A stretch of DNA of 63,645 nucleotides, counting the filler, from Chrysochromulina tobinii (taxonomy: Eukaryota): the NCBI GenBank assembly GCA_001275005.1. It is 7 parts of 7 records of this genome, joined end to end, with 100 filler letters (N's around TTAATTAATTAA, not from the genome) between each part and the next. Parts side by side here need not be neighbours in the genome. Positions count along the whole stretch, not along the records: positions 1 to 10,248 come from JWZX01000590.1; 6 more parts are not named here. One strand, given 5' to 3'. A program made the translations under genes and the position numbers. Shown here piece by piece: positions 7,546-9,410 of the stretch. Numbering within the stretch: the first letter of the stretch is position 1; each line of letters begins with the position of its first letter. The notes under the pieces were generated by a model. The model had not been told where the DNA came from. It saw only the letters and a list, made by a program, of their open reading frames with translations, and made no database searches.

Positions 7546-9410
7546 TCAATCGACATCAACCGCCTGTGCGAGTCGCATGATAGCGCTTGGTGGCACTCCT
7601 GCAGACCTGTGGGGAGAAGGGGGCGGGCGCCGTGATGAGGGCTTGCACGCAGGGCGCCGTGATGAGCGCTGGGTCGCACTCCGGCAGACCTGAGAATGCT
7701 GTCATCGAAGCCGGCGGGCAGCTCGATCGACGTCAACGAGGAGCAGTTCTGGAAGGCGCCCTCACCGAGGCTCGTGAGGCCAGCGGGCAGCGTGATCGAC
7801 GTCAACGAGGAGCAGCCAAAGAAGGTGAAGAAACCAAGGCTTGTGAGGCCGGTGGGCAGCTTGATCGACGTCAACGAGGAGCAGCCAGCGAAGGCGCTCT
7901 TACCGAGGCTGGTGAGGCCGGCGGGCAGCGCAATCGACGTCATCGAGGAGCAGTTCTGGAAGGCGTGATCACCGATGCTCGTGAGGCCGGCGGGCAGCGT
8001 GATCGACGTCATCGAGGAGCAGCCAGCGAAGGCGAACACACCGAGGCTCGTGAGGCCGGCGGGCAGCTCAATCGACATCAACGAGGAGCAGCCAGCGAAG
8101 GCGCGCACACCGAGGCTCGTGAGGCCGGCGGGCAGCGCGATCGACGTCATCGAGGAGCAGTTAAAGAAGGCGCCCTCACCGAGGCTCGTGAGGCCTGCGG
8201 GCAGCGCGATCGACGTCATCGAGGAGCATTTAAAGAAGGCGCCCTCACCGAGGCTCGTGAGGCCGGCGGGCAGCGTGATCGACATCATCGAGGAGCAGCC
8301 AGCGAAGGTGTACGCACCGAGGCTCGTGAGGCCGGCGGGCAGTGCGATCGACATCATGGACCTGTCCCCACAGAACGCGCACGGCGGCACGCGCGCCTCG
8401 CCGTCGCGCAGCGCGCACGCGGCGAGCAGCACCTCCATCGGCGCCTCGCCCTCGCCGCGAATGCACGCGCGCACCCCCGCCATCGGGTACGAGTCTTCAC
8501 CCGAAGACGCCACGCGCCTCAGCGCGGCCACGTCCACCTCGAAGCCGCCCAGCCCCGTCACCTTTGCCAGGTTGGGCAGCCAGTGCGACGCGTCGGCCGC
8601 GTCGGCGATGAGGCGACCGGCGGCGCGGCTGTCCGAGAGGTCGAGCTCGGTCACCTCGACGAGGTTGCTCGAAAGCGGCAGGCCGACCCGTGCGCATAGC
8701 CGCGCGCACAGAACGCGCCGCGCCCGCGCGCGCCATGCGAGGCTCACGCCCTTGAGCGCGCGCAGCGTCAGCACGTCGGCGTCCGCAAGGGCGTCCTCGA
8801 GGGCGTCCTCGTTGACGAGCTGTGTCGAGAGCCAGCACATGGGCGCTGGCGGTGTGGGTGCATCGGCCGCTCCCGGAGCCGTGGCGTCGTGCTGAGCGTC
8901 TTGCGTGTAGAGCGGCTCCTCCGTCGCCGCCTCCCGCTCAGCCTCAGTGGGGAAGTCGCTCACGACGCCCAGCAGCCGCCCGAGTTCCGGGCCACTCTTG
9001 CCGGCGAGGTGGCCGGTGCACAGGGTGCGTGAGAGGAGGCGGCGCAGCTCGACGTCCACGTCGAGAAAGTGCGCGCCGTGCAAAAGCTGCGCGAGCTGTG
9101 CGAGCGAGCACCCCTCCAGCGCCCCGCCCTCCTCCGCGCCGCCCTCGGCGACGCGCGAGAGCGTGCGGAGCGCAGCCGCAGGCACCGGCGTGGCGAACGC
9201 CCCCTCGGCGCCGCCCGTGTCGCTCACCCAGTTGGCGAGCGCGGCCGATCGCGCCGCGGCCAAACGGGACCACGCGACCTCCTCGCCCTCGGCGCTTTGC
9301 ACCCTCACATCGTCGCCGTCGCCGCCGACGACGATGTCCTCACCACCGTCGACGACACCGTCCCGATGACGCTTCATTTTCTTCGTCACACATTTCACAC
9401 GCGCATTCAC
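7546..9410 (-). CDS. Skp1-like + F-box-like + BspA-type LRR fusion protein; one intron 7689-7607
   Basis: LAQLLHGAHFLDV...LAGKSGPELGRLLGVVSDFPTEAEREA resembles the Skp1 C-terminal helices. VNEDALEDALADADVLTLRALKGVSLAWR resembles an F-box. Nine 23-aa LRRs follow. Splicing gives LRSAGVPPSAIMRLAQAVDVD*, matching the paralog. Start codon uncertain. Confidence 0.8.

What the first reader, a model, noticed from the sequence alone, without database searches (positions are those of the whole stretch)
7607..7689. Intron gain caught between two young paralogs
Seen: the minus-strand copy has an 83-nt GT-AG insert (CTCAG|GTCTGCCGGAGTGC...CCCCACAG|GTCTGCAGGAGTGC) that is precisely absent from the near-identical copy at ~1200 (CTGAG|GTCTGCAGGAGTAC). 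The first 14 nt of the insert copy the downstream exon (13/14), and it carries the shared core plus a partial second core. Splicing restores the same C-terminus as the paralog. Inference: recent gain at an AG|GT proto-splice site rather than loss.
Basis: partly seen in the sequence, partly recalled or inferred. Interest (0 to 1): 0.8.

Follow-up and report, generated by a model that had tools for sequence, protein, structure and literature searches.

The report
Newly gained intron with copied exon
One copy of a large repeat-protein gene family in a haptophyte alga carries an 83-base intron that RNA shows is cut out (though not always) and that its sister copies lack; it consists of a copy of the neighbouring exon plus a short sequence repeated elsewhere in the genome, and was likely made when DNA repair copied in the end of another intron.

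Summary
The 83-nt insert is real, is an intron, and was gained. RNA contigs of runs X16, X17 and X13 cross the exact exon join; DNA run X11 shows only the insert-bearing form. X12, X14 and X13 also hold the unspliced form, so splicing looks incomplete. Of 102 homologous proteins, 56 read through the site uninterrupted, 2 carry the insert, 44 were not scored as either; the carriers are sister to copy 1 and nested among empty copies. The exon copy is 25 nt (22/25), not 14. All 3 copies of the shared core in the window are bracketed by 16-34 nt direct repeats, and a different filler at 15166-15076 has a perfect 32-nt one; two of these share only G|GT, so AG|GT is not required. The target exon itself resembles the core (p about 0.01, post hoc), suggesting homology-guided copying during repair rather than a transposase. 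This scan already noted the family on another piece of this genome (e1-2577349); new here are the empty sites, RNA proof, retention and the mechanism hint.

The parts
7607..7689 (-). 83-nt GT-AG intron, gained in this copy; spliced, partly retained
7665..7689 (-). 5' third of the intron: 25-nt copy of the downstream exon (22/25); supplies the GT donor
7582..7606 (-). exonic partner of the direct repeat; the target segment, which itself resembles the shared core (score 10; 14 of 1730 background sites reach it)
7625..7648 (-). diverged copy of the 24-nt shared core; holds the likely branch site (inferred from the yUnAy consensus, recalled, untested)
7652..7666 (-). partial second core: perfect 15-nt repeat of 7639-7625, period 27
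7607..7624 (-). C-rich tract and CAG acceptor carried in by the filler
7546..9377 (-). copy 2: BspA-type LRR gene (PF13306), 582 aa when spliced; unspliced frame stays open to 7431 (648 aa) and replaces the conserved C-terminal cap
1..1262 (+). copy 1 (5' end off the window), intronless; empty site at 1201|1202
3561..3640 (+). sister unit with the canonical core, in an intron of a prolyl-4-hydroxylase-like gene (name from recalled motifs); starts with an 18-nt exact, about 34-nt imperfect copy of the downstream exon
57033..57102 (+). third core unit: 38 nt between perfect 16-nt direct repeats, no GT-AG register of its own
15076..15166 (-). predicted 91-nt intron with a perfect 32-nt copy of the downstream exon but a different (CTGAT-repeat) filler; removal restores a long frame; not RNA-tested

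Best explanation
This is a spliced intron gained by one lineage of a large BspA-type LRR gene family, likely made by a repair-type template switch that copied the 3' half of another intron of the same genome into the exon. Shown: the insert is in DNA, is removed precisely in RNA, is missing from most paralogs, begins with a copy of the next 25 exon bases and ends with a core, C-rich tract and AG that recur elsewhere in the genome. Inferred: synthesis ran about 25 nt past the future splice site, switched at partial homology onto a core-bearing donor intron, copied it through its acceptor and returned at the short (CA)G|GT match upstream. The return point makes the duplicated GT the donor in exactly the register that leaves the mRNA unchanged, and each new intron is a new donor. 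The donor so recruited (GTCTGC) departs from the other predicted donors of the window at +3, which would explain the retention; retention keeps an open frame and swaps the conserved cap for an 83-residue tail.
For: Splicing: X16 contig L009:710-854 (42 and 103 nt either side, 0 differences, depth 6.97), X17 721-854 (31 and 103, depth 4.06), X13 51-nt junction contig (24 and 27 nt, under the tool's 31-nt bar, depth 6); DNA X11 only insert-bearing; L009 is an independent public contig with the insert exactly absent, 1 mismatch over window 8160-7362. Gain: 56 intact, 2 insert, 44 unscored of 102, 32 of the 56 on contigs of 8 kb or more, so probably DNA gene calls; carriers group with the copy-1-type protein (FastTree support 0.912) inside intact clades. 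Repeated filler: 3 core copies in the window, 21 contigs of X9 leave the core at 3624 with a C-rich consensus ending in CAGG and 9 enter it with unrelated 5' sides, one more in L015. Duplications are long and variable (16, 28, 32, about 34 nt) and go with two different fillers; no terminal inverted repeat or stable fold. Target-core resemblance: LRR exon score 10 (14 of 1730 GGT sites; 0.7% of shuffled cores), P4H exon score 9 (41 of 1730; 1.4%). An in-frame tandem duplication without filler sits at the same site in P0001/P0003/P0005.
Against: The homology test was devised after seeing the data and holds for 2 of 3 core units; the 57033 unit scores 4 (background), and the 15166 junction match (5 nt) is reached by 61% of random windows. 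The match sits at the far end of the duplication only for the P4H unit (0.6%), not significantly for this one (20%). No specific donor intron was found: no genome is held. Long variable duplications with a fixed 3' end and ragged 5' end equally fit target-primed retrotransposition. The 3 mismatches in the exon copy do not move it towards the core. The tree uses the N-terminal part of a family with mosaic members and assembly chimeras. The unspliced RNA contigs (depth 2.1-3.2) could be DNA carry-over or pre-mRNA; contigs cannot give a splicing rate.
Confidence: 0.55

Rival explanations
1. The filler is a non-autonomous mobile element (an introner, most plausibly mobilised by target-primed reverse transcription) that makes unusually long target-site duplications; it carries its acceptor and takes its donor from the duplication. 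Gain and splicing are as in the best explanation.
For: Core units are always bracketed by direct repeats, also where no intron register results (57033); many copies in DNA; variable 5' side, more constant 3' side; introners that carry the acceptor and recruit the donor from the duplication are described. This is the reading of e1-2577349.
Against: Duplications of 16-34 nt against 3-9 nt or 3-8 nt for described introners; copies share only about 24 nt, no fixed ends, no inverted repeats; the same footprint goes with an unrelated filler (15166); targets resemble the core in 2 of 3 cases.
Confidence: 0.33
2. Two steps: a plain tandem duplication of an AGGT-containing exon segment, later expanded by a secondary insertion of the core repeat.
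For: CAG|GT is present on both sides here; a filler-less in-frame duplication exists at the same site in three homologs; tandem duplication is a described route.
Against: A 28-nt duplication is too short to splice and would shift the frame; the acceptor region is family-type, not exon-derived; sister units lack the upstream AG.
Confidence: 0.06
3. Old intron, lost from copy 1 and the other paralogs.
For: Copy 1 lacks it precisely, as cDNA-mediated loss would give; family members recombine.
Against: Needs many parallel losses (56 vs 2, nested position); the intron still copies its own exon and is closer to copy 2's exon (3 differences) than to copy 1's (5).
Confidence: 0.03
4. Coding insertion that creates a new C-terminus; splicing is incidental.
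For: The unspliced frame is open and brings a decayed LRR unit into frame; unspliced RNA contigs in 3 of 5 runs; a EukProt model (P0105) reads through it.
Against: Spliced form in 3 of 5 runs and deeper than the unspliced one where both occur (6 vs 2.1); the spliced form restores a cap kept by 56 homologs.
Confidence: 0.03

Closest known systems
Introners that carry the 3' splice site and recruit the 5' site from the target duplication (Symbiodinium, Polarella classes 4/5 and 6/8/10; PMC9860276 passages and part 2 of 7; bioRxiv 10.1101/2020.10.14.339549 parts 1-2 of 4)
   Same: Repeated filler brings the AG, the duplicated exon brings the GT, mRNA unchanged.
   Different: Duplication 16-34 nt and variable instead of a fixed 3-9 nt; no inverted ends; only a 24-nt core is shared; a third of the intron is host exon.
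Chrysochromulina sp. (Tara MAG) introner family 5 (PMC9860276 Fig. 2C legend)
   Same: Same genus label; duplication without inverted repeats.
   Different: 4-nt duplication and opposite polarity (carries the donor, recruits the acceptor). C. tobinii and C. parva appear in that study's supplement only in the list of genomes surveyed (file cut when stored); its filter drops introns that match over only part of their length.
Daphnia pulex new introns from staggered double-strand-break repair (PMC4202315, passages)
   Same: [quoted passage not shown]
   Different: Repeats there are 4-12 nt and the filler source is mostly unknown; here 25-28 nt and the filler is a recurring intron 3' end.
Tandem genomic duplication at AGGT, and reverse-transcription template switching (review PMC3443670, passages)
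   Same: Splice sites derive from duplicated exon; template switching is named there as a proposed route that mimics intron transposition.
   Different: Most of this intron is foreign to the exon; AG is not needed upstream in the sister units; no evidence here for an RNA template.
Earlier scan note e1-2577349 (same genome, another piece; AI note)
   Same: Short intron opened by a 15-nt copy of the gene's own sequence, said to belong to a family of more than a hundred.
   Different: The lines shown mention no empty paralog sites, spliced and retained RNA, or target-core homology. I could not see its sequence, so identity of the family is inferred.

Membership tests
Spliceosomal (U2-type) intron | GT-AG ends and precise removal from RNA but not DNA | tested here: met
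   X16, X17, X13 vs DNA X11; L009
Recently gained intron | Absent from most paralogs, carriers nested in the tree | tested here: met
   56 vs 2 of 102; tree of 62 N-terminal segments
Introner (Gozashti et al. 2022 sense) | Several unrelated introns similar over roughly their whole length, end to end | tested here: not met
   4 copies aligned share a 24-nt core and a loose C-rich end, 64% mean column identity, unrelated 5' parts; criterion
Introner (Gozashti et al. 2022 sense) | Sequence repeated at many loci, mostly at intron positions | tested here: inconclusive
   3 copies in the window, 21 diverging contigs in X9; no genome held for a count
TIR/TSD DNA-transposon introner | Terminal inverted repeats | tested here: not met
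   ends unpaired in the predicted folds, z = -0.77 and 0.56; none visible in the alignment
TIR/TSD DNA-transposon introner | Short, fixed-length target duplication | tested here: not met
   16, 28 and 19-35 nt for the three core units
Non-LTR/SINE-type (target-primed) element | Variable long duplication, fixed 3' end, truncated 5' end | tested here: inconclusive
   pattern compatible in 3-4 copies, but the 57033 unit has a different 3' end and there is no poly(A) tail
Non-LTR/SINE-type (target-primed) element | Autonomous partner with reverse transcriptase and matching 3' end | not testable with these tools
Break-repair (Daphnia-type) intron | Direct repeat of adjacent exon at the far end of the insert | tested here: met
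   28 nt, 3 mismatches; longer than the 4-12 nt reported
Tandem genomic duplication intron | Intron consists of duplicated exon, both splice sites from a duplicated AGGT | tested here: not met
   only 25 of 83 nt are exon copy plus the terminal CAG

The most novel reading that the evidence does not exclude
Chrysochromulina makes introns by a self-feeding, transposase-free copy process: repair synthesis jumps at partial homology onto the 3' half of an existing intron, reads through its AG|G and lands back on a G|GT 16-34 nt upstream, so every product is automatically an in-register intron and a new donor. That would be a direct, testable natural case of intron 'transposition' at the DNA level, invisible to introner screens that demand end-to-end similarity.
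Probability: 0.3. Interest if true: 0.8.

Novelty: new variant of a known kind. Interest (0 to 1): 0.55.

Why it matters
The source of most new introns is unknown, and cases with a filled site, many empty sites, a recognisable filler and RNA proof together are few. Here all four are in hand in a culturable alga, and the footprint (long, variable exon copy plus a recurring intron 3' end) fits neither described introners nor Daphnia-type repair introns well. If the homology hint holds genome-wide, the mechanism can be tested from existing assemblies. The incomplete splicing with an open retained frame also shows a young intron that may be tolerated because the gene is one of dozens of copies. 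Practical point: prokaryote-style gene calls and at least one EukProt model read through the intron and give a wrong C-terminus.

Tried and rejected
No genome is held, so no genome-wide count. The one metagenome scan returned 15 stretches in 14 loci, of which 5 loci are this locus or its transcript form (L001-L003, L007, L009) and 9 are unrelated chance matches; it gave no further paralog DNA, so polarity rests on protein tails. Core scans: viral contigs 1 hit, then 7 hits of which 6 chance and 1 the same contig; prokaryote genomes 0. The first reads call showed no joint at the intron, but its table hid 17 rows and also hid a known splice, so that is no evidence. The share of words (0.70-0.72) of X14-X17 does not mark splicing: X14 has 0.72 and is unspliced. 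L009 as a third, empty paralog in DNA: rejected, X11 has no contig across its join and RNA contigs continue into copy 2's own flank, so L009's ends are chimeric. Copy 1 as a frameshifted pseudogene: rejected, the two extra bases near 350 are absent from L001 and L002. First repeat survey was swamped by LRR repeats; repeated with arrays masked: 31 repeat pairs, 8 with a GT-AG register, against 3-6 and 0-1 in 10 simulated sequences; three of the 8 (4719-4658, 16424-16544, 24173-24382) I regard as doubtful. RNA folding gave nothing. Pfam and the protein atlas found nothing for the N-terminal 330 residues. Microhomology at the 15166 and 57033 units was tested and is not above chance. Paper searches listed no paper on this footprint in haptophytes; I saw only listings for most hits, the library lacks most subscription papers, and bioRxiv supplements and the uncut PNAS supplement were not seen.

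Full report
Setting. The window is eukaryotic, about 63% GC, and broken by six N spacers, probably joined contigs. The two genes in question encode an unclassified N-terminal part followed by BspA-type leucine-rich repeats (PF13306). Close homologs are named Chrysochromulina tobinii and C. parva by their sources, so the organism is a Chrysochromulina-like haptophyte. No whole genome was available.

Observation. The alignment of the two copies has one 83-nt gap at the stated place. The insert has GT and AG ends, opens with a 25-nt copy of the downstream exon (3 mismatches; 28 nt with the CAG shared on the left), holds a perfect 15-mer twice at period 27, and ends in a C-rich tract and CAG. The copy is closer to copy 2's exon (3 differences) than to copy 1's (5). 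The same insert stands in L001, L002/L003 and L007.

Is it spliced? I laid four runs on L009, a public contig that matches copy 2 over window 8160-7362 with one mismatch and lacks exactly the insert. RNA contigs of X16 (42 and 103 nt on the two sides) and X17 (31 and 103) cross the join without differences. X13 has both paths between the same two points: a 51-nt joined contig at depth 6 and a 134-nt contig (24+83+27) at depth 2.1. DNA run X11 has one 213-nt contig (27+83+103) at single-copy depth 47.9 and no other depth just past the join, so no joined form is seen in DNA. In the first laying, X12 (7504-7720) and X14 (7396-7731) cross the insert unspliced, while X12 splices a 319-nt intron of the neighbouring gene and none of the three RNA runs covers 1323-1991. 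The unspliced contigs are shallow and may include DNA or pre-mRNA, and contigs give no rate. X11 may be the source of the window.

Gain or loss? A search with the N-terminal 335 residues gave 102 homologs. By a motif rule 56 read through the cap uninterrupted (43 distinct tails), 2 have the insert-encoded tail and 44 have neither (truncated, different ends or distant); of those 44, one more is intact on inspection and one (P0027, an NCBI model) lacks 7 residues at the site. 32 of the 56 lie on contigs of 8 kb or more. Several entries are probably the same gene in different assemblies or strains. In a FastTree tree of 62 N-terminal segments rooted on a distant homolog, the two carriers are sisters, join the copy-1-type protein at 0.912 and sit several nodes inside intact clades. 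One gain is far simpler than repeated loss. The insert occurs in two versions of the gene that differ in N-terminus and repeat number (P0002/P0108 and P0018/P0103/P0105), both with the same insert-encoded peptide, so the gain predates their split or was spread by recombination.

What the filler is. A 24-nt core at 3601-3624 recurs at about 57050 and, diverged, in the insert, and in L015. In DNA run X9, 21 contigs leave the core into a C-rich consensus ending CAGG and 9 enter it from unrelated sequence, so it is a dispersed repeat usually found just before an acceptor. All 3 window copies are bracketed by direct repeats: 28 nt here, 18 exact and about 34 imperfect at 3561-3640, 16 at 57033 (no intron register). 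A predicted intron at 15166-15076 has a perfect 32-nt exon copy with a different filler. Left of the donor, 3561 and 15166 share only one G with the acceptor side, so the filler brings the AG and the duplication brings the GT; AG|GT is incidental here.

Mechanism (inferred). Described introners have short fixed duplications (3-9 nt; 3-8 nt in dinoflagellates) and similarity over the whole intron; Daphnia repair introns have 4-12 nt repeats and mostly unknown fillers. This case has long, variable duplications, no inverted ends and two fillers. The target exon aligns to the core better than 99% of comparable sites (score 10; 14 of 1730) and the P4H target better than 97% (score 9; 41 of 1730); shuffled cores reach these scores in 0.7% and 1.4% of trials. 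The 57033 target shows nothing and the 15166 junction match is at chance. I favour a double template switch during repair: forward onto a donor intron at partial homology, back at (CA)G|GT. It explains the register without a site-specific enzyme. The test was post hoc on three units, and a target-primed mobile element remains a close rival (0.55 against 0.33). Gain and splicing themselves I put above 0.9.

Consequence. Splicing gives 582 aa with the family cap; retention gives 648 aa with no premature stop, replacing the cap and bringing a decayed repeat into frame. The donor has C at +3, where the five other predicted introns listed have A or G; this may explain retention (inference).

Prior knowledge. 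Introners are reported in marine Chrysochromulina MAGs, with 4-nt duplications and opposite polarity in the figured family; C. tobinii and C. parva occur in that supplement only in the list of surveyed genomes (file cut). Nine paper searches listed nothing on this footprint in haptophytes; this does not cover closed journals. I saw passages of PMC9860276, PMC12130899, PMC4202315, PMC3443670 and PMC4580454, and parts 1-2 of 4 of the dinoflagellate preprint. This scan's note e1-2577349 already describes what is probably the same family on another piece of this genome; I confirmed the footprint on window copies but could not check its count of more than a hundred.

Verdict. A confirmed, RNA-supported intron gain with many empty sister sites and a traceable type of filler; a new variant of duplication-flanked intron creation, mechanism not settled. 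Interest 0.55.

Noticed in passing
window 10249-10348, 23169-23268, 39917-40016, 48738-48837, 57870-57969, 61743-61842: Six 100-nt spacers (44 N, 12 nt, 44 N): the window is probably several contigs joined, so gene order across them means nothing.
   Followed up: no
window ~349-352 (+): Two extra bases shift the frame of copy 1 in the window; L001 and L002 lack them and give an intact frame, so likely an assembly error.
   Followed up: yes
window ~9060-9377 (-) and upstream: The 5' end of copy 2 differs from L001/L002 and stops matching at 9325; probably a mosaic with another paralog in this assembly.
   Followed up: partly
window 3485-3640 (+): Two duplication-flanked units (68 and 80 nt) stacked in one predicted 148-nt intron: repeated events at one site.
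   Followed up: partly
window 2033-4680 (+): Prolyl-4-hydroxylase-like gene (label from recalled motifs) with four predicted introns, rich in 10-nt repeats or internal exon copies; intron 4171-4489 is spliced in X12.
   Followed up: partly
window 3787-3854, 4179-4384, 5611-5654, 15076-15135: A second, very high-copy filler of 10-nt CTGAT-type repeats in introns (summed depth above 80,000 in one bin of X9 against 45 single-copy); each unit resembles a branch site.
   Followed up: partly
P0001, P0003, P0005, P0071, P0027, P0006: Other homologs have a 12-residue tandem duplication, a short in-frame insertion, a 7-residue gap or a duplication at or next to the same cap site: a possible hotspot.
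   Followed up: no
window 8390-9377 (-): The N-terminal 330 residues of this expanded family match no Pfam family and no atlas cluster; by eye they recall Skp1 and F-box segments (recalled, untested).
   Followed up: partly
window 1323-1406 (+): DNA run X9 has a single-copy contig that skips 82 nt of copy 1's 3' flank with 9 other letters between: a further paralog or allele.
   Followed up: no
window 6797-7147: 66-74 nt tandem repeat between the CRAL-TRIO gene (5890-6769, -) and copy 2, with depth up to 9,000 in X9: another dispersed repeat.
   Followed up: no
L015:400-445: A record in the viral-contig collection carries the canonical core, C-rich tract and CAG; host contamination or a virus-borne copy, not resolved.
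   Followed up: partly
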